64,000 nt of DNA, from positions 30,413 to 94,412 of IMG/VR virus record IMGVR_UViG_3300008448_000023, one strand, 5' to 3'. The translations under genes were made by a program, and so were the position numbers. The notes beneath the pieces were generated by a model, which was not told the origin of the DNA, searched no databases, and saw only the letters and a program-made list of their open reading frames with translations. Shown one piece after another: positions 14,498-59,278 of this stretch (its first letter is position 1; each line of letters begins with the position of its first letter). This DNA comes from a virus.

Positions 14498-14516
14498 TCT
14501 TTTTTTCCTGTATACT
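14488..14516 (+). promoter_or_regulatory. sigma70-type promoter for the tailoring cluster, probably leaderless
   Basis: TTTACT-17 nt-TATACT with an extended TG; ATG 14523 lies 6 nt after the -10 box. Confidence 0.55.
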
Positions 14517-14522
14517 AACATC

Positions 14523-14831
14523 ATGGATACTGATGCCCTTGTTGCTCACGCACGAGCAAGATTTAATCATGCTGTTGCAAAACGGCTACTAAAAGAAAAA
14601 TACCTGGCCAAAATGACCTTTGCTTATCGCGGTGGCATGTGGCGTGCTGGTCCTGAACTGCTGGCTGTGTTACAAACTGTGCCAGTAGAAGATGAAGTGG
14701 TTATTGTTGACTTATACGAAAACCCTGTTAAAATTGATCCACTAGAACTACAGCACTTGGCATTTGACCGTTGGCAAGAACAAATGAATGCCTGGCACGT
14801 GGAGTTTGAAGAAATGAGCAAACGTCGATGA
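14523..14831 (+). CDS. Hypothetical protein
   Basis: 102 aa, first gene of the operon, ATGA overlap with the next gene. Confidence 0.7.
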   Translation: MDTDALVAHARARFNHAVAKRLLKEKYLAKMTFAYRGGMWRAGPELLAVLQTVPVEDEVVIVDLYENPVKIDPLELQHLAFDRWQEQMNAWHVEFEEMSKRR

Positions 14832-15631
14832 CCACCGGCGCACTGATATTTGCATTTAACAATGAACAAACCGACTACCTTGCTATGGCTCGATGGAATG
14901 CTGCAAACATTCGTAGGCACCTTAACATTCCAGTGGCCGTGGTCACAGACCAAACAGGATCTGATATTGTGGAAGGATTTGATCACGTCATTCATGCAGA
15001 CCCCAAAGCGGGAGGAACCCGTTATTTCCAGGATTATGATGCCACTGTTACGTGGCATAACGCAGGCCGAGTTGATGCTTATAGTTTGTCCCCTTGGGAC
15101 TGCACACTAGTATTAGATGCTGATTATGTTGTGGCCAGTGCTGCACTGCGCAATGTAATCAACGCTGATCGTGACTTTATGTGCTATCGCTGGGCCACAG
15201 ACATGACCACTGGACGGGAGTTAGAAGCTCTCAACACATTTGGGCGCCATCAAATGCCCATGCGTTGGGCCACAGTAATGATGTTCCGTAGATCAAACAC
15301 AGCACAATATATATTTGACTGTATGCAAATGATTCAAGACAACTGGCAACACTATCGCGATTTGTATGCCATAGACAAAAGCACATATCGCAACGACTTT
15401 GCATTGAGTATTGCTCTGGGCATTGTAAGTGGACACACCAACCATGTAAGTGATATTCCATGGCCCATGATGAGCGTCATGCCTGAACATACTTTAAAGC
15501 AAGTGGACGCTGACAGTTACGAGATTACATTTGTAGATGCTGATCGAAAACCTCAAACAGTAGGCTGGATTGGTTTTGATTTCCATGCCATGGGCAAACG
15601 TCATTTGGAGAATATCGTTGCGTCCTGTTGA
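14828..15631 (+). CDS. GT-A fold glycosyltransferase-like protein
   Basis: SPWDCTLVLDADY (DxD motif), GALIFAF start, RND motif. Confidence 0.65.
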   Translation: MTTGALIFAFNNEQTDYLAMARWNAANIRRHLNIPVAVVTDQTGSDIVEGFDHVIHADPKAGGTRYFQDYDATVTWHNAGRVDAYSLSPWDCTLVLDADYVVASAALRNVINADRDFMCYRWATDMTTGRELEALNTFGRHQMPMRWATVMMFRRSNTAQYIFDCMQMIQDNWQHYRDLYAIDKSTYRNDFALSIALGIVSGHTNHVSDIPWPMMSVMPEHTLKQVDADSYEITFVDADRKPQTVGWIGFDFHAMGKRHLENIVASC

Positions 15632-16382
15632 AGAACAAGGTTACATTATTCCTGCGTTCAATGTAGACAAGATAGACTACGTTGATTGTGCTCGTACCTT
15701 GGCAAAAACTTTACTGGCACAACATCCCAGGGCACGTATCTGTTTGCTGACCAACGAACCCTATGCAGCGGACTATAGTTTGTTTGCCTACACACACGTT
15801 GTAGACATCAATCGAGAAAATCCCTATGCCAACGACCCTTTGGTATTTGCTCAAACACCCTTCCGCGAAACTATCAAGCTAGAAGCAGACATGCTGATTG
15901 CCAGTCCAATAGATCACTGGTGGACCATGTTTAGGCATCGTGATGTGGTGTTGTCCACTGGCTGCCGTAACTGGCGCGACGAAATCAGCACAGCTCGAGA
16001 CTACCGAACAGTTTTTGATCAAAACAATTTGCCAGACGTGTACAATGCTATTACCTATTGGCGTCGCAGTGAAATGGCCAAAGAGTTCTTTGACACTGTG
16101 CGCAATATATTTGTTCATTGGACAGAATATCGTCGGCTCATCAAATACTCGCCCGATGTACCAGATACAGATTTGGTCTATGCCATGGCTGCACAGGTTA
16201 TAGGGCCTGAATTGGTTACTATTCCAGGATCGCCCTCAATTGTACACATGAAACAAGCACATGCAGGCACAGCCACAAAAGACTGGACACAAGAATTGGT
16301 TTGGGAAATGAATCCATTGAGAATCAATACCGTTGCTCAATGGGGTGCGTTCCACTATAATGTTAAAAGGTGGCAACCATGA
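15618..16382 (+). CDS. GT-A-like glycosyltransferase, paralog of the upstream gene
   Basis: TTG start at 15618 after GGAG; TPFRETIKLEADML aligns with SPWDCTLVLDADYV; DTD and HMK motifs. Confidence 0.6.
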   Translation: MRPVEEQGYIIPAFNVDKIDYVDCARTLAKTLLAQHPRARICLLTNEPYAADYSLFAYTHVVDINRENPYANDPLVFAQTPFRETIKLEADMLIASPIDHWWTMFRHRDVVLSTGCRNWRDEISTARDYRTVFDQNNLPDVYNAITYWRRSEMAKEFFDTVRNIFVHWTEYRRLIKYSPDVPDTDLVYAMAAQVIGPELVTIPGSPSIVHMKQAHAGTATKDWTQELVWEMNPLRINTVAQWGAFHYNVKRWQP

Positions 16383-16705
16383 TGACCCCAGATGAATTCT
16401 TTGGTGTATTAGAAAGTATGCCACAACCTCAGTCTGTATTTTATAGACTGTATTATGAAGGTGAACGCCCACTATTCTACAGCATGGAAGACTTGCCCGG
16501 TACATACATTGAAGTTACCCCTGAACAGTATGCTAGGAGCCAAATGAAAGTGCGTATTCGCAACGGAAGGATAATTCCTATCACTTGGCAAACGGCACAA
16601 AAACTCGCACCCAGCAACGCAGGCACACTGTGCCATTTGCAAGATGTTGCTATTGTTGTAAAAGAAAACGGAACCTATTGGAGCAAACGGACTTATGAAA
16701 GTTGA
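16379..16705 (+). CDS. Hypothetical protein
   Basis: About 108 aa, overlap-coupled within the operon. Confidence 0.65.
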   Translation: MMTPDEFFGVLESMPQPQSVFYRLYYEGERPLFYSMEDLPGTYIEVTPEQYARSQMKVRIRNGRIIPITWQTAQKLAPSNAGTLCHLQDVAIVVKENGTYWSKRTYES

Positions 16706-17615
16706 TATCGCAGATTTAGACTGCATTTACTTAACCTATGACGAACCACAAAAAGAAGAGTTTTGGATCAAAATTCGCAACATGGTGCCTTGGGCAAAAC
16801 GGGTGGATGGCGTTAAGGGCAGCGATGCTGCTCACAAAGCGGCGGCGCAGGCCAGTGACAGTGATAGATTCATTCTCATTGATGGCGACAATCTCCCCAA
16901 CCCGTCGTTTTTTAATCAGACGCTTGTTCTTCCTAATGAAGAATACAAGAACGCTGTGTTCCGGTGGCGGGCACGTAATCACATTAACGGTTTGATGTAC
17001 GGCAACGGAGGCCTAAGTTCATGGACAAAGGAGTTTGTGATGAACATGCAAACTCATGAAGCCACAGACGGACGAGATGAAACTCAGGTAGAGTTTTGTT
17101 TTGATCCCTTGTATTGGCCCATGCATGATTGTTATTCAACAACTTACCCCAACGGTGATGATTTCCATGCGTGGCGTGCAGGATTTCGAGAAGGCGTTAA
17201 GATGTGCCTGCAACGCGGTCGCAAACCCACGGTAGAAGAATTTAAAAATCAAGTGCTACGAAACTTAGACAATCTCACAATCTGGCACAACGTGGGCACA
17301 GATGTAGAATATGGCGAGTGGGCCATCGCTGGCGCACGTCAAGGCACCTATATGACCATGCTTACTAATTGGGATCATACCTTGGTGCAAAGTTTTGATG
17401 CCTTGGCCGAACTATGGCTCACAGTGAAAGATGGCCAACCAAGATTGCTCAGTAATCGGTTGGCCGAGGACTTGCACACACAATTGGATCTGCCAATGGC
17501 CATCCTAGAATGTGAACAAAGCGCATTTTTTAAACATCACTATCGTTTGAACTGGCACAATCAAGGTGTTATGGTTCGAGAAATTGACGTTATTCGCAAG
17601 ATAGAAGGTTGGTAA
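16695..17615 (+). CDS. GT-A-like glycosyltransferase
   Basis: AHKAAAQASDSDRFILIDGDN (DxD), NGLMYGNGG, AWRAGFREGVKM. Confidence 0.6.
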   Translation: MKVDIADLDCIYLTYDEPQKEEFWIKIRNMVPWAKRVDGVKGSDAAHKAAAQASDSDRFILIDGDNLPNPSFFNQTLVLPNEEYKNAVFRWRARNHINGLMYGNGGLSSWTKEFVMNMQTHEATDGRDETQVEFCFDPLYWPMHDCYSTTYPNGDDFHAWRAGFREGVKMCLQRGRKPTVEEFKNQVLRNLDNLTIWHNVGTDVEYGEWAIAGARQGTYMTMLTNWDHTLVQSFDALAELWLTVKDGQPRLLSNRLAEDLHTQLDLPMAILECEQSAFFKHHYRLNWHNQGVMVREIDVIRKIEGW

Positions 17616-19000
17616 TGAGCAAAGGCGACCAAAGCCGATTCATGAGCAGTGCGGAACAAATGTCGCAGGACCTAGGTCCTGCGCTGTGTTTGGCTAAATG
17701 GAAGCAGGTCAGCTTTCACTTGCCCACAGGTCTAAACAACTCATGTTACCATCCGCCCCTGCACCAAATTACCGCAGACGATTTGACACGCCCTGGTGGC
17801 CTGCACAATACAGCACACAAGAAATCTCAACGAGTAATGATGATACAAGGCGAAAAGCCTGGTGAGTGTCAGTATTGCTGGAACATGGAGAATCTAGGCA
17901 AACTCAGTGACAGACATTATCGTTCAGGAGAGCCGTGGGCCGCTGTGGATTTTGAACGCATTCGTAATTCAACAGGAACTGAAGATGATGTCATTCCAAG
18001 CTACGTGGAAGTCAATTTTAATAATGCTTGCAATCTTCGTTGTAGTTATTGCAGCCCTCAGTTTAGCAGCAGTTGGATGGACGAAACTACTAGACACGGA
18101 GCATACCCAACTAGTAAACCTCATAATGATCCTGCACACTTTGTGGGTTCGCGACGCCCCATACCGGCTAGGGAAGCTAATCCCTACGTTGATGCGTTTT
18201 GGGCGTGGTGGCCCACTCTCTATCCCAAACTAGAACACTTTCGCATGACCGGCGGCGAGCCGCTGATGGACAAAAATACCTATCGAGTGTTTGACTATGT
18301 GTTGGAGCATGACAATCCCAAACTGCATTTGAATGTAACTTCAAACTTTTCAGTAGAGGATGCGCTGTTTGAAAAATACATGGACTATGCCAAGAGATTA
18401 TGTACACCACGGATTGAACATTTCATGCAGTATGTTAGCCTAGACTCGGGCATTGCTACGCAAGCAGAATACCTGCGTCACGGCCTAGACTATGCTCGCA
18501 TGAGTCGCAATGTTGAACGATTCTTACAGGAAATACCAAGTCGCAACAGCCTGACGTTTATTATTACAATGAACAATCTCAGTGTCACAGGACTGCGGCC
18601 CATGCTGGAATGGATACTGAATCTACGCCGGACACACAGTTCAACCTATCAACGTGTATGGTTTGATACACCTGTGCTGCGCGAACCTGCTTGGCAAAGT
18701 CTACAAATACTGCCAGAAAGTTATGTACGTCAACTAGAACAGGCTAGAGATTACATGCTGGCCAACTTGACCACAGAAGCCAATCCCCTACACGGATTCA
18801 AAGACTACGAAGTGCAACGCCTGGAGCGTGACATTGCCTGGATGCGTGAAGGACAGTTACAGTACAATAGTATAGCCAAAGCAGACTTCTATCGTTTCTT
18901 TGCAGAACACGATCGTCGAAGGGGCACAGACTTTTTGAAGTCTTTTCCTGAGATGCGAGCCTGGTGGGCAGAATGTGAGTATCATGCTAGGAATACATAA
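17615..19000 (+). CDS. Radical SAM enzyme with N-terminal twitch-like Fe-S domain (#1)
   Basis: CNLRCSYC (CxxxCxxC) and TGGEP; upstream CLAKW...SCYH...ECQYC. Confidence 0.85.
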   Translation: MSKGDQSRFMSSAEQMSQDLGPALCLAKWKQVSFHLPTGLNNSCYHPPLHQITADDLTRPGGLHNTAHKKSQRVMMIQGEKPGECQYCWNMENLGKLSDRHYRSGEPWAAVDFERIRNSTGTEDDVIPSYVEVNFNNACNLRCSYCSPQFSSSWMDETTRHGAYPTSKPHNDPAHFVGSRRPIPAREANPYVDAFWAWWPTLYPKLEHFRMTGGEPLMDKNTYRVFDYVLEHDNPKLHLNVTSNFSVEDALFEKYMDYAKRLCTPRIEHFMQYVSLDSGIATQAEYLRHGLDYARMSRNVERFLQEIPSRNSLTFIITMNNLSVTGLRPMLEWILNLRRTHSSTYQRVWFDTPVLREPAWQSLQILPESYVRQLEQARDYMLANLTTEANPLHGFKDYEVQRLERDIAWMREGQLQYNSIAKADFYRFFAEHDRRRGTDFLKSFPEMRAWWAECEYHARNT

Positions 19001-20090
19001 AATTTTTGTTGACGAATGGGCCGAAACCTGGGACTTGCTAAAGCCCTATGCTGATGAGGTGTTTTGGCAATGGCCTAAAGAATTGGATCCTTCTAGTGTG
19101 TACATTGTAGGTCGTGTGCTGCTGAAGCAACACTGGACAGAAATCACAGAATGGGCTACTCAGCATCCCGGACGCATTGTGTTTTCAAATCCTGCTGAAG
19201 GATCTGAAACTATACTACTGCAACTCCGACGACTGCGTATTACAGAGCATGTGCGTGACGGACGTATTGGCCTACTAACCTCCGGTGACATGGAACCCGG
19301 CTGGCGTTATTGCAAAACAGATTGCTACTTCTCTAACATAGTAGAGTTCACAGAAAATCGAGCAGCACAGATTGAAGCTGCACTGGACCACAAAGTTCAG
19401 CGCCCTTATGAATTTTTGTTCTTAAATGGTAGACTGAGACCGCATCGCAAGTACCTAATAGACCATCTAAGAGCTCAAGAGTTATTGTCAAATGCACTGT
19501 GGACCAATCTTGGTAGTCAAGTTGAAATGGCTTTTACGTCTGCGTTGGACACAGGCAAAACAGAACCCATTAGATTGTTGCCCCCAGAATACGAGATCCC
19601 ACGTGCTGTGTCGCAGTTGAATACAGTACCTGAGTCGGGGTTTGTCAAACACGAGTTGTTCAACAACACCTGGGGTGATGCCATAGTCAATCATCGGTGC
19701 TACACAGACGCCTGGTTCAGTTTGGTAACAGAAACAATATTTGATTATCCGCACACGTTTCGCACAGAAAAGATCTACAAGCCTATTCTAATGGCACATC
19801 CATTTGTGGTTGCAGCCAATCCAGGCTATTTGCGAGATTTAAGAAACGCTGGATTCAAAACATTCGACACCTTGATAGATGAATCGTATGATCAAATCAA
19901 TACCCCAACTGCACGAATAGAGCGTATAATAGATACAGTGCGTGACATAAGTTTGAATGGTGCTGCTAATTTCTGGGAAGCCAGTCGTGATATCTGTAAA
20001 TACAATCAGCAACATCTTGTGGAATACAATCGTCAGCAACGTGCTGAGTTGCCCACACTACTAGAACAATACCTCAATGAACGATCTTGA
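18984..20090 (+). CDS. GT10-like glycosyltransferase-like protein
   Basis: SLVTET...RTEKIYKPILMAHPF...GFKTF...DESYD, resembling the TEK donor-binding motif of GT10. Confidence 0.5.
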   Translation: MLGIHKIFVDEWAETWDLLKPYADEVFWQWPKELDPSSVYIVGRVLLKQHWTEITEWATQHPGRIVFSNPAEGSETILLQLRRLRITEHVRDGRIGLLTSGDMEPGWRYCKTDCYFSNIVEFTENRAAQIEAALDHKVQRPYEFLFLNGRLRPHRKYLIDHLRAQELLSNALWTNLGSQVEMAFTSALDTGKTEPIRLLPPEYEIPRAVSQLNTVPESGFVKHELFNNTWGDAIVNHRCYTDAWFSLVTETIFDYPHTFRTEKIYKPILMAHPFVVAANPGYLRDLRNAGFKTFDTLIDESYDQINTPTARIERIIDTVRDISLNGAANFWEASRDICKYNQQHLVEYNRQQRAELPTLLEQYLNERS

Positions 20091-23090: not shown

Positions 23091-23725
23091 GTTTGAATTT
23101 TGATAGTTTTTTTGGCGCACCTACTTCCTATGTGCCGGGACCGTATTTTTTAGCAGCAGGTTGCAGTCATACTTCAGCGGTGGGGGTAGATGCTGATCAA
23201 TGCTGGGCAGGCCAACTGGCTCAACGCACTCGAATCAAGACTTGTAATCTAGCCGAAGCCGGGGGCAATGCCTGGATTGCCAGTATGCGTATAGCACAGT
23301 GGATTCTGGTCACCGGTCGTCCAGAGTTTGTTGTGGTACAATGGCCTCACCCCATACGCACAGTGATATGGAAAAACGGACAAGGTAATTCTGTTAACGT
23401 ACACGACACTGAAGATCATTTATTTCACACCCGCTTGCGCTACGGTGACTCCAATTACTGGGCTGAGTGGATGCAGGCAATAATTACTACAAATGCCATT
23501 TGCGTCGCAGCCAAAATCCCCATTATAAATTGGAGTCTTGACAACGTTGATCCGCACTATCTTGCACTGTTAAAGGCCAATGGCATTGTTGTGCATGATC
23601 AAACAGATCAACCACGCTGGGAAAGAGACCGGTCGGGCTCAGATCAACGACATGCCGGGCCCTTGTCACATGCGCAATGGGCACAACAATTACAGGAAAT
23701 GTTAAATGCAATTACCACACGATAA
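23087..23725 (+). CDS. SGNH-like hydrolase/acyltransferase-like protein
   Basis: AAGCSHT block I, NLAEAGG, QWP, C-terminal DQRHAGPLSH. Confidence 0.55.
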   Translation: MSLNFDSFFGAPTSYVPGPYFLAAGCSHTSAVGVDADQCWAGQLAQRTRIKTCNLAEAGGNAWIASMRIAQWILVTGRPEFVVVQWPHPIRTVIWKNGQGNSVNVHDTEDHLFHTRLRYGDSNYWAEWMQAIITTNAICVAAKIPIINWSLDNVDPHYLALLKANGIVVHDQTDQPRWERDRSGSDQRHAGPLSHAQWAQQLQEMLNAITTR

Positions 23726-27250: not shown

Positions 27251-27348
27251 ACTGGATTAAAAGCATCTGGAATCGAATTACCTTGGAAATTCGCTATCGT
27301 AAAAAGCTAAAAGAACTACGCAAGCGCGATCCATTTATCTACAAATGA
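27247..27348 (+). CDS. 33-aa basic peptide missing from the ORF track
   Basis: MNWIKSIWNRITLEIRYRKKLKELRKRDPFIYK*; ATGA overlaps at both ends and exactly fills the gap. Confidence 0.75.
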   Translation: MNWIKSIWNRITLEIRYRKKLKELRKRDPFIYK

Positions 27349-34568: not shown

Positions 34569-35643
34569 TTAACATACTCAGTAGTTCTTTCCAGAGAATC
34601 TGTTCGAACACGCTGCCGTAGAAGTGTTCATAATTGTGCTGCACTGTTGGCAAACAGTGGCGATGTATTTGTTGACGTTCTTTAACTGAAAGACTATTGA
34701 GATCTTTAAGTAACTGGGTGACTCGTTCAATGCGTCGAATATCATCAGTTTCTTCGTCGTAGCTTTCATCAAATATACCAGCAAAGGTCTTAAATCCGTA
34801 ACTACGCATGTATTCCAAACTGTGAGCTGGTGCTACTAGAACAAATGGCATTTCTAATGCAATTGCTTTGAATGTCTTTTCGGTAATGTGCAGTCGTTTA
34901 CCAAAGTAAACTGTTTCGGTAGGAACGTAAACCAAACTGTCCTGTGCTTCTGCATAGTTGCCCAAACAGTAGCTACTCATAACCTGTGTGTCTTCACCTG
35001 CAAAGTAACGAGGCAACTCGGCGCCCTGAAACACTTGCTCTATGTCAGGATATATGTTATTATACTTGAGTGCTATCTGTGAGATGTCTACGTTTTCGTA
35101 TGGACATACTCTAGGAGCCGAAATGTAGTTATTATCTAAACCATGCCGGAATACGTTGTACAAGAACAGCACTCTGTGATCGCGCTTGCCTGCAACAATT
35201 CTGTTGGGACTCATAAACGTACGAGAGGGTGATCTGTCAGCCGCCCTGGGGATCAGAAAAGTTTTGTCATAGCCGCGAAACCAGTCCTTGCAGGCCCATC
35301 CGTGATAAAAGTAGTAATGAGGTTCCCATCCATATATATGCGTGAGTGCAGTAACATATTCACCTTTTTCACTAACAACAACGTGACCTTCACGATGTCC
35401 CTGGATATCAAAATTGCGGCTTCGCACTGTATCGAACAATTCTTTATGAAGATCTAAATGTATAGGCTCTTGATCATGAAAAAATACAAAATCAGTTTCA
35501 GGAATATCATCCCTTCCGTAGTTGAACAATGCTTCAGGATCACTGCGTCCTGGAGGATCACAAAAGAATGTACGTGTTCCGGTTCGATACTGTTGCATCC
35601 AAGGCCAGAAGGTATTGTTGTAAATTTCGTCTATTCTAATCAT
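34552..35643 (-). CDS. GT10-like glycosyltransferase-like protein
   Basis: VPTETVY...HITEKTFKAIALEMPF...GFKTF...DESYD. Confidence 0.5.
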   Translation of the reverse strand: MIRIDEIYNNTFWPWMQQYRTGTRTFFCDPPGRSDPEALFNYGRDDIPETDFVFFHDQEPIHLDLHKELFDTVRSRNFDIQGHREGHVVVSEKGEYVTALTHIYGWEPHYYFYHGWACKDWFRGYDKTFLIPRAADRSPSRTFMSPNRIVAGKRDHRVLFLYNVFRHGLDNNYISAPRVCPYENVDISQIALKYNNIYPDIEQVFQGAELPRYFAGEDTQVMSSYCLGNYAEAQDSLVYVPTETVYFGKRLHITEKTFKAIALEMPFVLVAPAHSLEYMRSYGFKTFAGIFDESYDEETDDIRRIERVTQLLKDLNSLSVKERQQIHRHCLPTVQHNYEHFYGSVFEQILWKELLSMLNELRM

Positions 35644-38600
35644 GTTTGATATTTTTTATTTAGGTAAGAAGCCAGGTTTGTTTGCGCATGAGCGTGAGGC
35701 AGATAGTATTGAGCATGCACAAAGTTTGAGTCGCACAAGGTTCTTTTGGTGGGTGTCATACTTATGTGACTACTCCGGCTGGGATTGGTTTTACGAACCG
35801 CCTCCATGGCAAGCTGGTCAGAATCATGTGTGGCCTTCAAAGTGGCATCAGTATTCAGGCACATATCTCATACCTAAGACGCCCACAGACCAATGGAACT
35901 TTCATACAGAAGCTATAGCAACACAACCTGTAGACGAAAACTGGAAGGTATTGCATGCGATTGATCATGCTGAGTTTGACTTCTCCTGGCACCCACACCC
36001 ACTAGACCCGCCATATATCTATGTGTGGGGCAATCAACATTGGCCAGGGGAAAAAATGCCCACAGTGGAATATTGTGTTGAAGGTGCTACTGAACGCAAG
36101 TATATGGACTGGCCAGCTTCACTGCGCCCAACAACTACAAATTGGACAACACCTGCGCTGATTGATCCTAACAGTGTGGACTATTCATGGCGGCCAGATC
36201 CACAAGACCCACCTTATATCTATGAATTTGCTACACAATGGCAACCCAATGGCGGTGCTGTGTACACAGTGCCTGGCGCTGTAGAACACAAGTATGTGGG
36301 CATACAACATCGCAGACTGCCCAACAAAGCTGCATGGAAATTTTTAGAACCAGTAGCCAGTTTTGATTGGTCATGGCATCCGGACAACACTGAGCCGGCC
36401 TACAACTATGTGTTTGGTAACCAACACTGGCCAGCTACAGAAATGCCTACCATTGTTTACAAAATGCCAGGTGCCGAATCAGACAAGTTCATGGATGTGT
36501 TGGTTGCACGCCTGTGGGGTTGCATGGGTAACTGGGAGTTGTGCGAAGACATCGACGATAGTGTATGGGATTGGACCTGGGTGCCTAATCCCAATGATCC
36601 TCCGTACATCTACGTATTTGGCAATCAGTGGAATCCTCCTGAACTCAAGGCCAGTTTGCGGTATCATGTTGAAGGCGCAACAGAATTTAAATACATGGAT
36701 CAGCGCACACGCAGACTACCACAACCAGAGTTGTTTACAAATCATTTGCCTGTGGCTGAGTTTGACTACAGCTGGGAACCTGATCCCACAGATCCGCCAA
36801 TGACTTATGTGTTTGGCAACCAATGGAACACAGGTGTGTTAGAACCCACAGTGACTTATACCACAGGTGGAACAGAAACCAAGTATGTGGACAACATTGC
36901 TGCCAAGATTGCGCCAGACAAAACTAAATGGGAATTATTAGATGACATTGAAGAATTTGATTACAGCTGGAGGCCTGATCCTACTGATCCTCCTTATATC
37001 TACGTGTTTGGTAACCAGTGGCTCGCTCCCGAACAGCGACCTGCTGTCCAATATCATGTACCTGCCGCTGATGAGATAAAATACATGAGCCATCCTCGTG
37101 CCAAGCGCCGAGGAGATCCTGCACGTTTTGAGCAATTGTATCCTTGCGAGTTTGATTGGTCCTGGGAACCTGAACCAGGAAGCCCTCCTTATATCTATGT
37201 GTTTGGTAATCAATACTACCCAGCAGAAGTCATGCCTACATTGACGCTGACTGTGCCCGGTGCAACAGAACGCAAGTACATGGACATAGCTGCAAAACTG
37301 CTGCCACGGCACGACAATCATTGGCACACGTTGGTAGACTGTGAATGGGATTATACCTGGAGGCCAGAACCTGGAAGCCCTCCTTACATCTACGTGTTTG
37401 GCAACCAGTGGTGGTCAGCAGAAAAAATGCCCACGGTAGAATATCATATGCCCGGGGCAACAGAGCGCAAGTACATGGATATCAATGCAGAGTTATTGGT
37501 AGACATGACACATTGGCACATCCCAGAATATGTAGACGTCACGGATATGGACTTTAGTTGGGTTCCTGATCCAGGTGAACCGCCTTACATCTATCAGTTT
37601 GCCACGCAACACCAAAAAACAGGCGGTCCACAGTATCGTATGCCTGGTGCAACAGAGTTCAAGTATGTGGACATGATGCGAGCCGAAGTTAAAAAAGAAG
37701 CAGCACCCATCTTTGAAATTGATCACTTGGATGGTGCAGCAGGGCAGATTCCCGGCACAGTCAAGAAGGTGCGTTACTTTGACAACTATCGCGACACGCT
37801 GATACGTCTGGCCAAAAGTCTAGCAGGTGAATACGAACATGTATGGGTATGCAGTAGTATCTGTGACTACACTGGGTTCGACTTCTCGTGGCATCCTGAA
37901 ACTTGGCAGTCAACAATGTTGCACGTATTCCCCAGCAATGACCAAAAGTTTGGGGACACATTCTACATGCATGTGCCTACCTTTGCAGAACGTGCTGAAA
38001 AGAAACAGTTGTTGGAATGGTATTCAGTGAACTATGTGTCACGCCGGAGTGTGCCACGTAGATCCATGCCTGTGATTGAACACACTGCCGATTCGCATGT
38101 GGATGCAGTCAAGAACACAGATTGGTCAGGCCCATTGGCACTGTTCTCTACCAATGGCGTACCCATCACCTTGCCCACTGTGCCACTTTGGCGCCAAGAA
38201 ACCAAGACCATTGTGCCATTGAGTGAGGGTGCCAGTGCAGTGATTGTGCCAAAAGTGGCCCGAGGCGATGTCCGAACACAGTTGTACAATTATGCACACA
38301 TTGACAAGACCCAACGCAAACGCCACAGCGATCAGCCATTAGATATTGTGTTTATCAGCAACGGAGAACTCAGTGCTGACAAAAACTATCGCAAACTGGA
38401 TGACAGCAAGTACAATCGAAACAATCGACTCAAACGAATTGACCGTGTAAATGGTCGTGCAGCCGCTTATCATGCCGCAGCTAGAGCCAGTGCCACACCG
38501 TGGTTCTTTGCAGTGTTTGCTAAACTAGACATTCGCATGGATTTTCCATGGGACTGGCAACCAGATCGTATGCAACAGCCCAAACACTATATCTTTCATG

Positions 38601-39028
38601 CACACAATCCTGTAAACGGCTTGGAGTATGGACATCAAGCCATGATTGCTTACAATCGAGATCTAGTGTTGGCCAATCCTGGTGTGGGACTTGACTTTAC
38701 ATTAGACAGCGCACACGAAGTTGTGCCAATCAACTCAGGCACAGCATGGTACACAGACACGCCGTGGCAGGCCTGGCGCACAGCATTTCGTGAAGTAGTC
38801 AAACTCAAGCACAGCTTGCCTGATGTAGAAAGTGAGTACAGGCTCAACATGTGGCTCAGCAATACTGGAGAAGTTCAAAACGCTGAGTGGAGCCAATGGG
38901 GTGCAGAAGATGCTGTGGATTATTATGACGAAGTAGGTGGAGATTTTGTAGCTCTTAAGAAAAGCTACGAGTGGGATTGGTTGGCTAGCTATGCGTTTAT
39001 GCGACGCAACTTAACACCTGATCACTGA
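35642..39028 (+). CDS. 1,128-aa W/P/Y-rich repeat protein with a C-terminal GT-A-like domain lacking DxD
   Basis: Nine ~65-aa repeats (FD(W/Y)SWxP..PPYIYVFGNQW...PT..Y..PGATE.KYMD); C-terminus paralogous to 16695..17615. Confidence 0.75.
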   Translation: MFDIFYLGKKPGLFAHEREADSIEHAQSLSRTRFFWWVSYLCDYSGWDWFYEPPPWQAGQNHVWPSKWHQYSGTYLIPKTPTDQWNFHTEAIATQPVDENWKVLHAIDHAEFDFSWHPHPLDPPYIYVWGNQHWPGEKMPTVEYCVEGATERKYMDWPASLRPTTTNWTTPALIDPNSVDYSWRPDPQDPPYIYEFATQWQPNGGAVYTVPGAVEHKYVGIQHRRLPNKAAWKFLEPVASFDWSWHPDNTEPAYNYVFGNQHWPATEMPTIVYKMPGAESDKFMDVLVARLWGCMGNWELCEDIDDSVWDWTWVPNPNDPPYIYVFGNQWNPPELKASLRYHVEGATEFKYMDQRTRRLPQPELFTNHLPVAEFDYSWEPDPTDPPMTYVFGNQWNTGVLEPTVTYTTGGTETKYVDNIAAKIAPDKTKWELLDDIEEFDYSWRPDPTDPPYIYVFGNQWLAPEQRPAVQYHVPAADEIKYMSHPRAKRRGDPARFEQLYPCEFDWSWEPEPGSPPYIYVFGNQYYPAEVMPTLTLTVPGATERKYMDIAAKLLPRHDNHWHTLVDCEWDYTWRPEPGSPPYIYVFGNQWWSAEKMPTVEYHMPGATERKYMDINAELLVDMTHWHIPEYVDVTDMDFSWVPDPGEPPYIYQFATQHQKTGGPQYRMPGATEFKYVDMMRAEVKKEAAPIFEIDHLDGAAGQIPGTVKKVRYFDNYRDTLIRLAKSLAGEYEHVWVCSSICDYTGFDFSWHPETWQSTMLHVFPSNDQKFGDTFYMHVPTFAERAEKKQLLEWYSVNYVSRRSVPRRSMPVIEHTADSHVDAVKNTDWSGPLALFSTNGVPITLPTVPLWRQETKTIVPLSEGASAVIVPKVARGDVRTQLYNYAHIDKTQRKRHSDQPLDIVFISNGELSADKNYRKLDDSKYNRNNRLKRIDRVNGRAAAYHAAARASATPWFFAVFAKLDIRMDFPWDWQPDRMQQPKHYIFHAHNPVNGLEYGHQAMIAYNRDLVLANPGVGLDFTLDSAHEVVPINSGTAWYTDTPWQAWRTAFREVVKLKHSLPDVESEYRLNMWLSNTGEVQNAEWSQWGAEDAVDYYDEVGGDFVALKKSYEWDWLASYAFMRRNLTPDH
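35657..35662 (-). promoter_or_regulatory. TAAATA late-type promoter inside the opposite-strand gene
   Basis: Minus strand reads CCTAAATAAAAAATATCAAACATG, 13 nt before ATG 35643. Confidence 0.45.
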
Positions 39029-40103
39029 TGTATTCAACTTCTAAGTCAGTGAGTTCAGGATACAATGGCAAGCTAAGAACTCTACGTGCTAGACTAGAAC
39101 TCACGGCCAACATATCTGGGCCAGGCCATTGACGATAGACATCAATTTCATGTATAGGGCGCTCGTAATGTACACGAGTTTCAATTTTAAGATCAGCTAG
39201 TTTTTGTTTGACTGCGTTTCGATTGTCAATGTCAATTACAAACTTGTGATGTGCATGATTATGTGCGTTGTTCTCATCAATCAAGCATCGAATCTTGGAA
39301 TTCTTAGCAAAGCGTTCGCGCCAGAAGTCGGATATCTGCGCTCGGCGAGCCTGCCACCGGTCAATGTGTTGTGTTTTGATCAGCATGGTAGCACAGTCAA
39401 TTTCGCTCATGCGACTATTGGTTCCCGCATAGTTGTGCGTGGGTTTGCCGTTGTCTCTCCAGGCACGGGCAAATTCAGCAAGATCCGAGTTGTCTGTGAC
39501 AACAGCCCCTCCGTTGCCATAACAGGCTAAGTTCTTCATAGGGTCAAAGCTAATGGCTGCGGCATCACCTATGCGTTGACAACTGTTGGCCAGCCAGTGT
39601 TGGGCAGCATCTTCGATCACAATAGTGTTGGTAGCTACCCAATGATTCCAGGAACGCACATGAGCCGAATGTGTGATTGATTTGCCATACAGACCCACTA
39701 ACACCACAGCATCATAATCCACACCCTGTGGAAACTTTGTATCGTCGATGATGCCGTAAGCGTCAGTGTCAATGAAATGAATGTCCCAACCGGCACGTAT
39801 AAAAGCGTTTGCTGTAGCCACGTAGGTAAAGCTGGGCATGAACACCTTGGGATGTAGTGTTAGTTGAGAGGCCCAGTATTCGGCAATAATCTCCAAGGCA
39901 TGTGTGCCCGAGTGACAAGTCACAGCATATTTTGAACGATTTTTCTTGGCGAGCCAATGCTCAAATTCAGCGGTGTTGTTGCCGTTCATAAGAACTCCTG
40001 AACGCAGAACTTCGTCTGTGGCGTTCAGGACTTGATCTCGCAGTGCGTTATACTGTTTTCGGAGACCAGTAAAGGGGATGGTTAGTCCGGTTGTAGTTGA
40101 CAT
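38997..40103 (-). CDS. DegT/DnrJ/EryC1/StrS PLP-dependent sugar aminotransferase
   Basis: SGTHAL, EDAAQH, SFDPMKNLACYGNGG (PLP Lys), LSLPLYP; start revised to 40103. Confidence 0.92.
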   Translation of the reverse strand: MSTTTGLTIPFTGLRKQYNALRDQVLNATDEVLRSGVLMNGNNTAEFEHWLAKKNRSKYAVTCHSGTHALEIIAEYWASQLTLHPKVFMPSFTYVATANAFIRAGWDIHFIDTDAYGIIDDTKFPQGVDYDAVVLVGLYGKSITHSAHVRSWNHWVATNTIVIEDAAQHWLANSCQRIGDAAAISFDPMKNLACYGNGGAVVTDNSDLAEFARAWRDNGKPTHNYAGTNSRMSEIDCATMLIKTQHIDRWQARRAQISDFWRERFAKNSKIRCLIDENNAHNHAHHKFVIDIDNRNAVKQKLADLKIETRVHYERPIHEIDVYRQWPGPDMLAVSSSLARRVLSLPLYPELTDLEVEYISDQVLSCVA

Positions 40104-41059
40104 TTCCAATAATCGCTTGTGCTTAACCATTTGTAGTATTCGCGGAAGCCTTCTTCAACGTCAACTTGGGGGTCATAACCAAGAATAGTTCTAGCACGAT
40201 CAATATTTAAGGCACCTCGGCTGGGGAAGTCTGCGTCTTTGTCACGGATATCGATGCTGCCTTTGCCCACAATATCAACCACCATTTCGGCGGCCTGCTG
40301 GAGTGTGACTGAATGAGATTTAGTAATATTGTAAGTATTGTTCTTAGCCGTGATCCTAGTTGATGCTGCCACAATACCCGCTGCCGCATCATCCACATAG
40401 GTAAAGTCAAGTGTTTCTCCTGCGCCATTGACCCTGAGGGTACCACCACGCATTGCGGTGAGCATAAATTTTGCAACAACCCGATCTTCCACATCCAGCG
40501 GTCCATACACTGCCGACGGACGGATGACCACATATTCCATGCCTGTTCGTCGGGCATAATCTTTGACAAGATGTTCTCCTGCTAGTTTCATAATGCCGTA
40601 CTGTCCTTGCGGCTGGCATTCGTCGTCTTCTAATACCTGATCTTCAAAGTCTCCGTACACCATGCTAGAGCTGATGTACACAAAACGTTCTACACCGTGC
40701 TTTTTGGCACTCTCCAACAGATTGATCAAGCCAGTCATCATTACTTCGCTGCCGTGTCGAGGATCAGCATTGACAACTTTTTGTCTAGGAAAGCTGGCAC
40801 AGTGAATGATTACCGTGGGCTTCTCTTCGGAGATGATACGCTCCATAGCGTCAGTCTCTGTGATAGAATTTGGATACCATGTGTGTGGTTTGAGTTTTTT
40901 AAGTCGCTCACTCATCAAGTAATCAACTTCACTCTGTGGGATGATCCCATAGGTAGTGTGAGTATCTACTACCACAACTTCGTCTTCACGTTGTTGTAGG
41001 CGAGCCACAACATTGTGCCCAATAAGACCGTGCCCGCCTGTTACTAAAAATTTGCTCAT
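40082..41059 (-). CDS. NAD-dependent nucleotide-sugar epimerase/dehydratase
   Basis: VTGGHGLIG, SSSMVYG, YGIMK (YxxxK), DFTYVDD. Confidence 0.92.
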   Translation of the reverse strand: MSKFLVTGGHGLIGHNVVARLQQREDEVVVVDTHTTYGIIPQSEVDYLMSERLKKLKPHTWYPNSITETDAMERIISEEKPTVIIHCASFPRQKVVNADPRHGSEVMMTGLINLLESAKKHGVERFVYISSSMVYGDFEDQVLEDDECQPQGQYGIMKLAGEHLVKDYARRTGMEYVVIRPSAVYGPLDVEDRVVAKFMLTAMRGGTLRVNGAGETLDFTYVDDAAAGIVAASTRITAKNNTYNITKSHSVTLQQAAEMVVDIVGKGSIDIRDKDADFPSRGALNIDRARTILGYDPQVDVEEGFREYYKWLSTSDYWKCQLQPD

Positions 41060-59274: not shown

Positions 59275-59278
59275 CTGC

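What the first reader, a model, noticed from the sequence alone, without database searches (positions are those of the whole stretch)
14523..41059. 26-kb phage tailoring cluster with an aminoglycoside-like enzyme set beside the tail genes
Seen: an NAD-dependent epimerase, a DegT/StrS aminotransferase, an amidinotransferase, a NodU/TobZ-type carbamoyltransferase, 7 radical SAM enzymes, 3 GT-A-like, 3 GT10-like and 3 SGNH-like genes, nearly all overlap-coupled. Known: the same enzyme classes build aminocyclitol antibiotics (StrS-type transamination, StrB1 amidination, TobZ carbamoylation, BtrN twitch radical SAM oxidation). Inference: the phage builds a guanidino/carbamoyl/acyl-decorated glycan. 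Adjacency to Ser/Thr-rich fibre genes and a TAAATA late-type motif at one sub-operon favour virion glycosylation. DNA hypermodification, host-surface remodelling or a diffusible metabolite remain open.
Basis: partly seen in the sequence, partly recalled or inferred. Interest (0 to 1): 0.86.

Follow-up and report, generated by a model that had tools for sequence, protein, structure and literature searches.

The report
Jumbo-phage radical-SAM sugar-tailoring gene island
An uncultured giant phage carries, right behind its tail-fibre genes, a conserved 27-kb block of soluble sugar-transferring, amino-, amidino- and carbamoyl-adding enzymes and seven iron-sulfur "radical SAM" enzymes of a family with no known reaction; it most likely builds a heavily edited sugar decoration, but neither the product nor the molecule it is attached to has been shown.

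Summary
The stretch contains seven radical SAM genes. Six belong to the catalogued but unstudied NCBIfam family NF033640 (auxiliary Fe-S "twitch" module in front of the SAM core), and an eighth copy lies at 59261. The NodU/TobZ-type carbamoyltransferase, the AGAT/StrB1-type amidinotransferase (catalytic Cys and His kept), the DegT aminotransferase and a GalE-type SDR are all confirmed. The three "GT10-like" genes model as GT-B glycosyltransferases. Two "GT-A-like" genes have marginal GT8 (glycogenin) support and a third has only motifs. Only one of three "SGNH" genes is supported. No late-type promoter was found; the operon has a conserved sigma-70-type leaderless promoter after a terminator.

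Gene order is fixed in about 80 related viral contigs. Complete relatives (320-364 kb) hold 6-17 NF033640 copies. The same rSAM/SGNH/carbamoyltransferase set recurs in Ralstonia phage RsoM2USA, a marine phage fragment and Bacteroidota polysaccharide-type loci.

I read it as a soluble glycan-building and tailoring pathway. The target is unproven; the conserved Thr-rich fibre protein immediately upstream is my best guess. An overlooked, almost invariant 33-residue peptide gene sits inside the operon. This scan has noted the same kind of cluster on other DNA (at least 79 genomes).

The parts
11752..13488 (+). Tail fibre protein (578 aa; context and possible acceptor).
   Evidence: N-terminus matches PHROG virion structural protein. 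Has GNxTGGN repeats and a C-terminal YADVAERFE-type motif. Composition G13 T12 A10 S10 %.
13502..14467 (+). Thr/Ala/Gly-rich fibre-like protein (321 aa), the candidate glycan acceptor.
   Evidence: Thr 19 %. All 41 orthologs have 18-24 % Thr and 27-33 % S+T, against about 11 % in the enzymes. It always lies directly upstream of the operon.
14471..14516 (+). Intrinsic terminator (14471-14490 plus T-run), then a sigma-70-type promoter (TTTACT-17-TATACT) ending 6 nt before ATG 14523, which implies a leaderless start.
   Evidence: Hairpin plus T-run in 37 of 39 relatives. A TAnnnT -10 element, often TGTATAAT or TGTACAAT, in 38 of 39.
14523..14831 (+). Conserved 102-aa protein, function unknown; first gene of the operon.
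   Evidence: 53 of 80 related loci, median identity 62 %. No family hit above threshold.
14828..15631 (+). GT-A (GT8-like) glycosyltransferase candidate.
   Evidence: LDADYVV DxD motif and C-terminal H..GK. Atlas nearest named clusters are Nucleotid_trans/GT8 at 0.95. The diverse family profile hits glycogenin in 19 of 20 PDB hits, E 0.04, with the DxD aligned. No Pfam hit.
15570..16382 (+). Paralog of 14828 with an ExD (LEADM) variant. The true start is probably later than the listed TTG.
   Evidence: BLASTP 3e-7 to 14828. Joint alignment A5. phrog_1903, unknown function.
16370..16705 (+). Conserved 111-aa protein, function unknown.
   Evidence: 65 of 80 loci. No family hit.
16695..17615 (+). 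GT2-like (GT-A) candidate, 306 aa, very conserved.
   Evidence: IYLTYDEP and LIDGDN motifs, 80 % mean column identity. Weak Glyco_tranf_2_3 hit on the DxD region, E 0.1. An Atlas cluster is automatically named GT2-like. Fold not tested.
17609..19000 (+). N_Twi_rSAM paralog (single-Cys subtype).
   Evidence: NF033640 at 303 bits. Cys 27, 46, 87, 90 precede CX3CX2C at 141.
18975..20090 (+). GT-B glycosyltransferase (TE...TEK..K family, GT10-like motif).
   Evidence: AF2 pLDDT 85, pTM 0.84. Foldseek hits WaaG, SenB, PglA, T4 BGT and HpFucT at probability about 0.99. Invariant E75, R158, E265, K266, K269.
20077..21405 (+). N_Twi_rSAM paralog.
   Evidence: NF033640 at 279 bits. 49 % identical to RsoM2USA_202.
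21402..23090 (+). N_Twi_rSAM paralog with a ~160-aa N-terminal extension.
   Evidence: NF033640 at 406 bits on residues 164-560. Present in 80 of 80 loci.
23087..23725 (+).
   Evidence: Only 6 of 80 loci. No Pfam or PDB hit.
23706..24944 (+). N_Twi_rSAM paralog (CC subtype).
   Evidence: NF033640 at 348 bits. SPASM at residues 9-78 precedes Radical_SAM at 119-275.
24913..26229 (+). N_Twi_rSAM paralog (CC subtype).
   Evidence: NF033640 at 281 bits.
26216..27250 (+). Conserved 344-aa protein of unknown function: a cyclophilin-like barrel with a helical insert. Not a GT.
   Evidence: About 5000 metagenomic homologs, none named. AF2 pLDDT 81. No Foldseek match. VIA gives Z about 8 to cyclophilins and to helix bundles.
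27247..27348 (+). 33-codon micro-gene (MNWIKSIWNRITLEIRYRKKLKELRKRDPFIYK), with ATGA overlaps on both sides.
   Evidence: Found in 68 of 80 loci, usually abutting the carbamoyltransferase. 91 % column identity. In the C-terminal 18 codons, 10792 synonymous against 1699 non-synonymous differences. A homolog precedes the carbamoyltransferase in marine virus AG-345-D19.
27345..27989 (+). SGNH/DUF6071 esterase-like protein (accessory).
   Evidence: DUF6071 at 36 bits (cut-off 27); Lipase_GDSL_2 at 30 bits, below its cut-off. 10 of 80 loci. Two homologs flank the rSAM in RsoM2USA.
27986..29467 (+). NodU/TobZ/CmcH-type O-carbamoyltransferase.
   Evidence: Pfam PF02543 and PF16861. phrog_1601 at 2e-94. 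43 % identical to RsoM2USA_199 and 28 % to a Bacteroidota homolog beside N_Twi_rSAMs.
29458..30150 (+). Accessory 230-aa ORF with an N-terminal LILGDSF motif; SGNH status unproven.
   Evidence: 4 of 80 loci. No Pfam or PDB support.
29969..31405 (+). N_Twi_rSAM paralog. The true start is probably downstream of the listed TTG.
   Evidence: NF033640 at 230 bits on residues 67-477.
31376..32404 (-). Seventh radical SAM. It is a different family, also has a SPASM-like module in front, and is accessory.
   Evidence: Pfam SPASM at 28-94 and Radical_SAM at 114-250. NF033640 only 32 bits; best NCBIfam hit 7e-16, below its cut-off. 6 of 80 loci.
32401..33573 (-). Amidinotransferase (AGAT/StrB1/SxtG/HsvA superfamily). 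Orthologs are about 347 aa, so the true start is probably later.
   Evidence: PDB phmmer 1e-14 to 4e-13. GGISC aligns with GGFHC (catalytic Cys) and GHGDA with MHIDA (His). 45 loci at 82 % identity. Also present in AG-345-D19.
33417..34568 (-). GT-B paralog.
   Evidence: BLASTP 1e-18 to 18975. Member of alignment A2.
34552..35643 (-). GT-B paralog.
   Evidence: BLASTP 6e-12 to 18975 and 4e-15 to 33417.
35642..39028 (+). 1128-aa protein: about ten tandem ~60-100-aa repeats (..SW.P.P.DPPYIYVFGNQ..) plus a C-terminal domain homologous to 16695 but lacking the DGD motif.
   Evidence: Sequence read. hhalign 97 %, E 2e-11 to the 16695 family. No Pfam, PHROG or PDB hit.
38997..40130 (-). DegT/DnrJ/EryC1 sugar aminotransferase.
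   Evidence: Pfam 1e-62. Best NCBIfam hit is PseC at 8e-45, below its cut-off. Present near the cluster in 5 of 5 near-complete relatives.
40082..41059 (-). NAD-dependent SDR, GalE-type 4-epimerase-like, not a 4,6-dehydratase.
   Evidence: Pfam Epimerase 4e-45. 28 % identical to RfbB, with SSSMVYG where RfbB has STDEVYG.
59261..60436 (+). Eighth radical SAM gene (seventh N_Twi_rSAM), isolated inside the tRNA region, outside the reported range.
   Evidence: NF033640 at 205 bits. Found by the search of the window's own contig. Neighbourhood read.

Best explanation
The block is a phage-encoded, entirely soluble pathway that assembles and chemically edits an oligosaccharide.

Shown:
- It has five or six glycosyltransferase-type proteins: two GT8-like GT-A, one GT2-like candidate and three GT-B.
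- It has a GalE-type SDR and a DegT aminotransferase, which make or interconvert amino-sugar nucleotides.
- It has an Arg-type amidinotransferase with its catalytic Cys and His intact.
- It has an O-carbamoyltransferase.
- It has six anciently diverged N_Twi_rSAM paralogs, each with a complete four-Cys auxiliary cluster site ahead of the SAM cluster.

Inferred:
- The GTs build a short glycan on an acceptor.
- An amino group introduced by DegT is converted to a guanidino group by the amidinotransferase.
- Hydroxyls are carbamoylated, and acylated or de-acylated by the SGNH protein.
- Each radical SAM paralog performs one position-specific, oxygen-independent edit of a sugar, such as oxidation of C-OH to a keto group (as BtrN and anSME do with their auxiliary clusters), epimerisation or deoxygenation. 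This could also supply the keto-sugar that DegT needs, since no 4,6-dehydratase is present.

The acceptor is most likely the Thr-rich fibre protein encoded immediately upstream, or other fibre proteins, so the product would be a decorated tail-fibre glycoprotein. The enzymes are transcribed separately from a sigma-70-type leaderless promoter, so they could be in place before the fibres are made.

My confidence that this is glycan building and tailoring is about 0.75. My confidence that the acceptor is a virion fibre protein is about 0.4-0.45.
For: - Enzyme identities.
- Paralogs are old and individually conserved: they are 19-32 % identical to each other while each has orthologs at about 70 % identity in 76-80 of 80 loci.
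- Gene order is identical in relatives, from the fibre gene through DegT.
- 6-17 NF033640 copies, and DegT, are present in 5 of 5 near-complete 320-364 kb relatives.
- Independent recurrences of the ensemble:
  - RsoM2USA has SGNH, rSAM, SGNH and carbamoyltransferase.
  - Marine virus AG-345-D19 has amidinotransferase, SGNH x2, peptide, carbamoyltransferase and rSAM.
  - Bacteroidota chromosomes have N_Twi_rSAM pairs or quartets with carbamoyltransferase, SGNH x3, polysaccharide deacetylase, GT11-like and GT2 enzymes, methyltransferases and polytopic membrane proteins.
- No TM-like segment in any of 30 cluster proteins.
- The fibre protein stays 18-24 % Thr in 41 of 41 orthologs despite 45-98 % identity.
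- From the literature: phage virion O-glycosylation exists in mycobacteriophages (Freeman 2023, cited in PMC12619734), and tail-fibre regions of pelagi/cyanomyophages carry GT8 genes and radical SAM cassettes (PMC7029224).
Against: - No product, acceptor or activity has been observed for any gene here, and NF033640 has no characterised member.
- The fibre gene and the operon are separate transcription units with different promoter types, so adjacency is weaker evidence than co-transcription would be.
- The GT-A calls rest on marginal scores (E 0.04; no Pfam hit in 81 family members).
- The fold of 16695 and of the radical SAMs was not modelled.
- Soluble GTs such as LPS-core enzymes also lack TM helices, so the absence of membrane proteins does not exclude a host-envelope target.
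- One bacterial context (L105) pairs N_Twi_rSAMs with six PhyH dioxygenases and a fibre-like T9SS protein rather than with GTs. This leaves open that the radical SAMs act on protein.
Confidence: 0.45

Rival explanations
1. Host-envelope remodelling: the enzymes modify the infected cell's LPS core, O-chain or capsule at the cytoplasmic face, for example to block superinfection or change receptor display. This was proposed for glycosyltransferases in the host recognition cluster of pelagimyophages.
For: - PMC7029224 reads GT8 and LPS-type genes in tail-fibre regions this way.
- The cellular homologs of the ensemble sit in polysaccharide-type loci with membrane proteins.
- The top GT-B fold hits include the LPS enzyme WaaG.
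- A sigma-70-type promoter would allow early expression.
Against: - There is no flippase, polymerase, initiating polyprenyl-phosphate transferase or any TM protein among the 30 cluster proteins.
- The module is a fixed, vertically conserved part of a lytic-type jumbo-phage genome, always behind the fibre genes.
- 27 kb and up to 17 radical SAM genes is a large investment for exclusion.
Confidence: 0.2
2. Peptide-based product: the invariant 33-residue peptide is the scaffold or precursor (RiPP-like, or cofactor-like as with PqqA or MftA). The radical SAMs modify it, and it is then glycosylated, carbamoylated and amidinated, as mycofactocin is glycosylated (established knowledge of those pathways).
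For: - The micro-gene is the most conserved gene of the operon (91 % column identity). It is under strong purifying selection, with an invariant ...RKRDPFIYK end.
- It is translationally coupled inside a radical SAM array.
- A homolog exists in a distant marine phage.
Against: - It tracks the carbamoyltransferase rather than the radical SAMs (distance 0 in 46 loci).
- No such peptide was found by pattern search beside the radical SAMs of RsoM2USA, K566 or the three bacterial loci.
- It is a very basic, probably helical peptide without Cys. The N_Twi_rSAMs also lack an RRE-type peptide-binding domain, since their N-terminus is the Fe-S module.
Confidence: 0.12
3. DNA hypermodification: the GT-B enzymes and tailoring enzymes decorate phage DNA bases with a modified sugar to evade restriction.
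For: - T4 beta-glucosyltransferase is among the GT-B fold matches.
- ThyX and nucleotide-metabolism genes follow the cluster.
- Phage GTs that hypermodify DNA with diverse glycans are known (Pyle 2024, cited in PMC12619734).
Against: - 0 of 5 near-complete relatives have a ThyA-type (PF00303) hydroxymethylase or a TGT/DpdA (PF01702), with positive controls, so the known entry points for glycosylated or deazaguanine bases are missing.
- The BGT match is no better than generic GT-B matches.
- The position is behind the fibre genes, not in the replication module.
Confidence: 0.1
4. Diffusible aminoglycoside-like metabolite, released or used inside the cell. This takes the first reader's aminocyclitol analogy literally.
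For: The enzyme classes (DegT, amidinotransferase, TobZ-type carbamoyltransferase, twitch radical SAM) are those of aminoglycoside pathways (established knowledge). Their identities were verified.
Against: - No cyclitol-forming enzyme, resistance gene or exporter was seen among the cluster proteins.
- Five or six GTs and a repeat mega-protein fit a glycoconjugate better.
- The cellular counterparts are polysaccharide-type loci.
Confidence: 0.05

Closest known systems
NCBIfam NF033640, N_Twi_rSAM (twitch domain-containing radical SAM protein)
   Same: Six genes in the stretch, and one at 59261, score 205-406 bits against a cut-off of 170. They share the family architecture: a four-Cys auxiliary module first, then CX3CX2C.
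   Different: The family has a name only. I found no reaction, substrate or paper for it. It was rare in the cellular genomes sampled (4 of 401 Bacteroidota over the cut-off), yet it is expanded to 6-17 copies per genome in this phage clade.
Host recognition cluster of pelagimyophages and cyanomyophages (PMC7029224)
   Same: It is a tail-fibre-linked region holding glycosyltransferases (GT8 most common), sugar genes and radical SAM cassettes. Cyanophage S-CAM8 has the homologous carbamoyltransferase between tail-fibre genes.
   Different: That region is described as hypervariable and non-syntenic in ~150-200 kb T4-like phages and was read as host O-chain modification. Here the block is strictly syntenic across a ~350 kb jumbo-phage clade, and it contains an amidinotransferase, a 33-aa peptide gene and six fixed radical SAM paralogs. 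The radical SAM family was not identified in that paper.
Mycobacteriophage virion glycosylation (Freeman et al. 2023, as cited in PMC12619734)
   Same: Phage-encoded glycosyltransferases next to structural genes, with Ser/Thr-rich acceptor regions on virion proteins.
   Different: There, one to a few GTs decorate the capsid and tail-tube C-termini, and the glycans were shown by mass spectrometry. Here nothing has been shown, the candidate acceptor is a fibre protein, and the pathway includes radical SAM, amidino and carbamoyl chemistry.
Aminoglycoside tailoring enzymes (StrB1, TobZ, BtrN, StrS-type aminotransferases)
   Same: The enzyme superfamilies are the same. StrB1 is a direct PDB hit at 4e-13, and the TobZ/NodU Pfam domains are present.
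   Different: No cyclitol synthase is present. BtrN has its twitch domain C-terminal and is not in NF033640. The resemblance is one of chemistry, not of pathway membership.
Bacteroidota polysaccharide-type loci with N_Twi_rSAM
   Same: They have two to four N_Twi_rSAM genes with a carbamoyltransferase (28 % identical), several SGNH proteins, GT2 and GT11-like enzymes and methyltransferases.
   Different: They include polytopic membrane proteins, a deacetylase, a B12-radical SAM or PhyH dioxygenases. They have no fibre gene, no micro-peptide found by pattern search, and no amidinotransferase seen.

Membership tests
NF033640 N_Twi_rSAM | Whole-protein score above the curated cut-off of 170 bits. 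| tested here: met
   229-406 bits for 17609, 20077, 21402, 23706, 24913 and 29969; 205 bits for 59261. 31376(-) scores only 32 bits and is not a member.
NF033640 N_Twi_rSAM | Auxiliary Fe-S (twitch/SPASM-like) Cys module N-terminal to the CX3CX2C SAM-cluster motif. | tested here: met
   The Pfam SPASM hit precedes the Radical_SAM hit. Four upstream Cys, C-x18-C-x39-51-C-x2-C, occur in all seven.
Radical SAM enzymes acting on sugars (BtrN/anSME-type dehydrogenases) | Demonstrated SAM cleavage with a sugar or alcohol substrate. | not testable with these tools
   No member of NF033640 is characterised. The sugar substrate is inferred from gene neighbourhoods only.
GT-B glycosyltransferases | Two Rossmann-like domains, with structural similarity to solved GT-B enzymes. 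| tested here: met
   The model of 18975 has pLDDT 85. The 11 Foldseek hits at E<=1e-3 are all GT-B, at probability 0.96-1.0. 33417 and 34552 are sequence paralogs.
CAZy GT10 (alpha1,3/4-fucosyltransferases) | Match to the family profile (Pfam Glyco_transf_10) and the FucT motif with catalytic Glu, Arg and the E-K pair. | tested here: inconclusive
   No Pfam hit even at E<=10. HpFucT 2nzx is a fold hit at rank 17, TM 0.45. Invariant E75, R158 and ..TE..TEK..K resemble the motif, but the residue correspondence was recalled from memory and not aligned structurally.
GT-A / CAZy GT8 | Nucleotide-sugar-binding Rossmann-like domain with a DxD motif, and a profile match to GT8. | tested here: inconclusive
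   The DxD motif is present. The A6 profile hits glycogenin at E 0.04-0.5 in 19 of 20 PDB hits, with the DxD aligned. The Atlas lead scores 0.95. No Pfam GT8 hit in 81 family members. hhalign to WaaJ and WaaO is not significant. Fold not modelled.
GT2-like GT-A (gene 16695 and the C-terminus of 35642) | Profile or fold match to GT2 with a DxD motif. | tested here: inconclusive
   Glyco_tranf_2_3 at E 0.1 on the LIDGDN region. Only an automatic Atlas cluster name. The PDB profile search is empty. hhalign to WcaE is negative. The C-terminus of 35642 is homologous but lacks the DGD motif.
Amidinotransferases (AGAT / StrB1 / SxtG) | Sequence homology across the fold, plus the catalytic Cys-His(-Asp) residues. 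| tested here: met
   E 1e-14 to 3e-11 to five family structures over three stretches. Cys in GGISC and His in GHGDA align with the AGAT catalytic residues. Asp was not checked rigorously.
NodU/CmcH/TobZ O-carbamoyltransferases | Carbam_trans_N and Carbam_trans_C domains above the gathering scores. | tested here: met
   116.5 bits (cut-off 24) and 161.8 bits (cut-off 27). It is not the NodU equivalog: 136 bits against a cut-off of 1000.
DegT/DnrJ/EryC1/StrS aminotransferases | Pfam PF01041 above the gathering score. | tested here: met
   212.9 bits against 19.8. No NCBIfam equivalog is reached, so sugar specificity is unknown.
NDP-sugar 4,6-dehydratases | SDR with the T-D-E acid/base motif before YxxxK. 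| tested here: not met
   SSSMVYG aligns with STDEVYG of RfbB. The protein is GalE-like instead.
SGNH/GDSL hydrolases | Profile match with the block I GDS motif. | tested here: inconclusive
   27345 scores above the DUF6071 cut-off, but its GDSL scores are just below cut-off. 29458 has only a GDS-like motif. 23087 has nothing.
Phage virion glycosylation systems | Glycan demonstrated on a virion protein. | not testable with these tools
   Only context is available: a conserved Thr-rich fibre gene directly upstream.
Phage DNA glycosyl-hypermodification systems | A pyrimidine hydroxymethylase (ThyA-like) or base-exchange enzyme that provides the attachment point. | tested here: not met
   PF00303 and PF01702 are absent from 5 of 5 relatives that are at least 92 % complete, and the controls were positive. 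The window's own contig is only 27 % complete.

The most novel reading that the evidence does not exclude
N_Twi_rSAM enzymes are a new class of glycan-editing radical enzymes. Each paralog performs one site-specific, oxygen-independent edit (oxidation, epimerisation, deoxygenation or C-C or C-N bond formation) on a sugar already attached to a phage fibre protein. Together with amidino and carbamoyl transfer, this gives the virion a glycan coat made of sugars that no host pathway supplies. The expansion to 6-17 paralogs per genome would then be a combinatorial generator of virion surface chemistry.
Probability: 0.3. Interest if true: 0.9.

Novelty: new variant of a known kind. Interest (0 to 1): 0.7.

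Why it matters
If the reading is right, a very abundant clade of ~350-kb aquatic phages spends close to a tenth of its genome on making an unusual sugar decoration. One core gene alone has about 5000 metagenomic homologs. The chemistry would rely on a radical SAM family for which no reaction is known.

This would extend virus-encoded glycosylation, so far shown for mycobacteriophage capsids and tails and for giant eukaryotic viruses, to tail fibres of Gram-negative jumbo phages. It would also give NF033640 its first function. The guanidino and carbamoyl sugars it predicts could affect host recognition, stability or evasion of defences.

The question is directly testable, because cultured phages (Ralstonia RsoM2USA, Vibrio K566/K567) carry reduced versions of the module.

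Tried and rejected
- Nucleotide search of the cluster against 50,697 phage records found no match.
- Profile searches of the GT-B family, 16695 and 26216 against PDB sequences found nothing.
- Foldseek on the 26216 model found nothing. VIA gave only middling cyclophilin-like and helix-bundle matches, so its function is left open.
- hhalign of the GT-A-like family against 16695 and against single E. coli WaaJ and WaaO, and of 16695 against WcaE, was not significant. Single sequences are too weak for this.
- A Pfam scan of 81 remote relatives of the GT-A-like family showed that the family is not covered by Pfam: one weak Mannosyl_trans3 hit and one CBM_5_12 fusion.
- Complex prediction of the 33-aa peptide with the carbamoyltransferase gave no verdict (score 0.00), so it says nothing either way.
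- The search for related loci with the eight-paralog alignment failed for lack of a conserved stretch, so a single paralog was used instead.
- The two hits in a MAG labelled Haliscomenobacter are two different phage contigs binned with it. Canonical sigma-70 promoters and the nearest cultured relatives (PA5oct-like, Sinorhizobium and Ralstonia phages) argue against taking this as the host. The host is left unknown.
- The moraphage paper (PMC12619734) does not mention radical SAM genes. I could not tell whether it describes the same lineage.

Full report
**Where the window lies.** The window is bases 30413-94412 of a 94-kb IMG/VR viral contig that CheckV rates 27 % complete, which implies a genome of about 350 kb. 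Upstream of the finding lie an ORF of more than 3,649 aa with FG-GAP and T7-tail-fibre-like segments, a classic tail fibre (11752-13488) and a 321-aa Thr/Ala/Gly-rich protein (13502-14467). Downstream, on the minus strand, come ThyX, an HNH endonuclease, an ATPase and a tRNA array. The nearest cultured phages by the ATPase are PA5oct-like Pseudomonas and Sinorhizobium jumbo phages, at 46-50 % identity. No phage record matches at the DNA level.

**Checking the observation: confirmed enzymes.**
- Pfam and NCBIfam confirm seven radical SAM genes in the stretch.
- Six of them, plus an eighth gene at 59261-60436, score 205-406 bits on NCBIfam NF033640 (N_Twi_rSAM), whose cut-off is 170.
- In all seven family members, four cysteines (C-x18-C-x39-51-C-x2-C) precede the CX3CX2C motif. 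That is a complete ligand set for an auxiliary [4Fe-4S] cluster placed in front of the SAM domain.
- The seventh gene within the range, 31376(-), belongs to a different family.
- The carbamoyltransferase (Pfam N and C domains; phrog_1601), the DegT aminotransferase and the SDR are clear.
- The amidinotransferase has no Pfam hit. It matches AGAT, StrB1, SxtG and HsvA structures at 1e-14 to 3e-11, with the catalytic Cys and His aligned.
- The SDR aligns full-length with RfbB but has SSSMVYG where the dehydratase has STDEVYG. It is therefore GalE-like, and the window holds no dedicated 4,6-dehydratase to feed DegT.

**Checking the observation: glycosyltransferases and SGNH genes.**
- The family 18975 / 33417(-) / 34552(-) has no profile or PDB sequence hit.
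- An AlphaFold model of 18975 built on 20 homologs is confident (pLDDT 85). All its significant Foldseek matches are GT-B enzymes: WaaG, SenB, PglA, T4 BGT and H. pylori alpha1,3-fucosyltransferase.
- 'GT-B fold' is therefore shown. 'GT10-like' is a reasonable motif-level resemblance, not membership.
- The paralogs 14828 and 15570 carry a DxD or ExD motif and a C-terminal H..GK.
- A deep profile search found 1,695 relatives of this family. None is covered by Pfam.
- The diverse profile hits only glycogenins (GT8) in the PDB, at marginal E values with the DxD aligned. This agrees with an ESM Atlas lead.
- 16695 has GT2-type motifs (IYLTYDEP, LIDGDN) but only weak leads.
- Of the three 'SGNH-like' genes, only 27345 is supported.
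- 26216 is one of the most conserved genes, with about 5000 unnamed metagenomic homologs. It models as a cyclophilin-like barrel with a helical insert and remains unexplained.

- *The micro-gene.* The 94-nt 'gap' at 27251-27344 is a 33-codon gene with ATGA overlaps on both sides. It is present in 68 of 80 related loci and usually abuts the carbamoyltransferase. Its last 18 residues are almost invariant. Synonymous differences outnumber non-synonymous ones 6.4 to 1 there, so it is translated and strongly constrained. A homolog precedes the carbamoyltransferase of a distant marine phage fragment. Earlier notes of this scan pointed me to look for it.
- *The repeat protein.* The 1128-aa protein at 35642-39028 consists of about ten tandem repeats with a DPPYIYVFGNQ core. 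Its C-terminal domain is homologous to 16695 (hhalign 97 %) but lacks the DGD motif.

**Conservation.** A single paralog retrieved 80 viral loci, many from contigs of 320-365 kb. The core runs from the Thr-rich fibre gene through 26216, plus the carbamoyltransferase, the amidinotransferase and the GT-B pair. It is present at 43-82 % identity in identical order. The genes 23087, 27345, 29458 and 31376 are rare accessories. The radical SAM paralogs are 19-32 % identical to each other, yet each has orthologs at about 70 % identity, so the duplications are old and each copy is kept. Five near-complete relatives, two with terminal repeats, carry 6, 8, 9, 9 and 17 NF033640 genes, and all carry DegT near the cluster.

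**What the neighbourhoods elsewhere say.** NF033640 is rare in the cells sampled (4 of 401 Bacteroidota genomes over the cut-off) and again occurs in clustered copies.
- One locus (L107) has two copies beside a carbamoyltransferase (28 % identical to the phage one), three SGNH proteins, a polysaccharide deacetylase, a GT11-like protein and a B12-radical SAM.
- A second locus (L106) has four copies with an SGNH protein, a methyltransferase-GT2 fusion and polytopic membrane proteins.
- A third locus (L105) has two copies among six PhyH dioxygenases, a WelO5-like enzyme, a methyltransferase and an 842-aa protein with a tail-fibre-type Peptidase_S74 domain and a T9SS tail.
- Ralstonia phage RsoM2USA has SGNH, rSAM (49 % identical to 20077), an unassigned ORF, a second SGNH and a carbamoyltransferase (43 %).
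- Marine virus AG-345-D19 has an amidinotransferase, two SGNH-like genes, the peptide, the carbamoyltransferase and an rSAM.
- Vibrio phages K566 and K567 carry four copies.
- In cyanophage S-CAM8, the homologous carbamoyltransferase lies among 2OG oxygenases between tail-fibre genes.

The recurring partnership of this radical SAM family with carbamoyltransferase, SGNH and glycosyltransferase genes is the main reason I read the family as sugar- or glycan-directed.

**The target.**
- None of the 30 cluster proteins has a TM-like segment, and there is no flippase, polymerase or initiating transferase. This fits direct glycosylation of a soluble acceptor. It does not exclude LPS-core-type chemistry at the inner face of the membrane.
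- The protein encoded directly upstream keeps 18-24 % Thr in all 41 orthologs, while its sequence identity to the window's protein ranges from 45 to 98 %. That is the pattern expected of an O-glycosylation substrate.
- However, a strong terminator follows that gene (in 37 of 39 relatives). The operon then starts from a conserved TTTACT-17-T(G)TATAAT-like promoter whose -10 element ends 6-7 nt before the ATG, so the mRNA is leaderless.
- The T4-type late motif TATAAATA occurs only three times in the window, which is no more than chance. One copy lies in front of the fibre gene 11752 and none lies in the cluster.
- The promoter argument for a 'late' operon therefore fails, and the link to the fibre is positional only.
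- Against DNA hypermodification, five near-complete relatives lack ThyA-type hydroxymethylases and TGT/DpdA homologs, with positive controls.

**Comparison with what is known.**
- I found no paper on NF033640 and none on this island in jumbo phages.
- The closest published description is the 'host recognition cluster' of pelagimyophages and cyanomyophages. It is a variable tail-fibre region with GT8 genes and radical SAM cassettes, read there as host O-chain modification (PMC7029224).
- Virion glycosylation by phage GTs is established for mycobacteriophages, and DNA glycosylation for T-even-like phages (cited in PMC12619734).
- This scan has already noted the same kind of island in at least 79 other genomes, with follow-ups reaching similar readings. 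Those are not independent evidence.
- What distinguishes this window is the full amino-sugar to guanidino branch (SDR, DegT, amidinotransferase) attached to the island.

**Verdict.** The feature is real, conserved and widespread, and its enzyme content is largely as described. The glycan-tailoring reading is well supported by context (about 0.75). The virion-fibre target is plausible but unproven (about 0.4-0.45). The chemistry of the radical SAM family is unknown. I class it as a new variant of a known kind (virus-encoded glycosylation islands), with an unstudied enzymology at its centre.

Noticed in passing
window 2-10951 (+): An open reading frame of more than 3,649 aa that runs off the left end of the window. 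It has an FG-GAP repeat and a weak T7 tail-fibre N-terminal hit, so it is presumably a giant fibre or adhesin.
   Followed up: partly
window 14488-14525 and the same place in 38 of 39 relatives: A conserved sigma-70-type promoter, often with an extended -10 (TGTATAAT), whose -10 element ends 6-7 nt before the ATG. This implies a leaderless mRNA for the enzyme operon. The -35-like TTTACT overlaps the 3' arm and T-run of the preceding terminator.
   Followed up: partly
L022, L028-L035 and many others: In most relatives the tblastn match to residues ~137-562 of gene 21402 spans about 2.4 kb instead of 1.3 kb. Either the match is joined across two adjacent paralogs or there is an insertion in the gene. 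I did not resolve which.
   Followed up: no
G405 (320-kb relative, contig of L030): It has 17 NF033640 genes, ten of them scattered far from the main island. I did not examine what they sit beside.
   Followed up: no
L105 (G080:C2:1208500-1228400): A Bacteroidota chromosomal locus has six PhyH dioxygenases, a WelO5-like enzyme, a methyltransferase and two N_Twi_rSAM genes next to an 842-aa protein with a Peptidase_S74 domain and a T9SS sorting tail. It may be a protein-tailoring system.
   Followed up: partly
L091, L092 (MAG labelled Haliscomenobacter sp. EUL_031, contigs 1 and 3): Two different jumbo-phage contigs (183 and 148 kb), each with the full radical SAM island, are binned into a bacterial MAG. 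This is probably binning contamination and at best a weak host hint.
   Followed up: partly
window 59261-60436 (+): The eighth radical SAM paralog stands alone in the middle of the tRNA gene array, far from any sugar gene.
   Followed up: partly
window 35642/35643: The divergent genes 34552(-) and 35642(+) start back to back with no intergenic space, so their promoters must lie inside coding sequence. The convergent pairs 29969/31376 and 35642/38997 overlap by about 30 nt.
   Followed up: no
window 11717-11724 (+): One of only three exact T4-type late-promoter motifs (TATAAATA) in the window lies 28 nt before the tail-fibre gene 11752. It is a single instance with no statistical weight.
   Followed up: no
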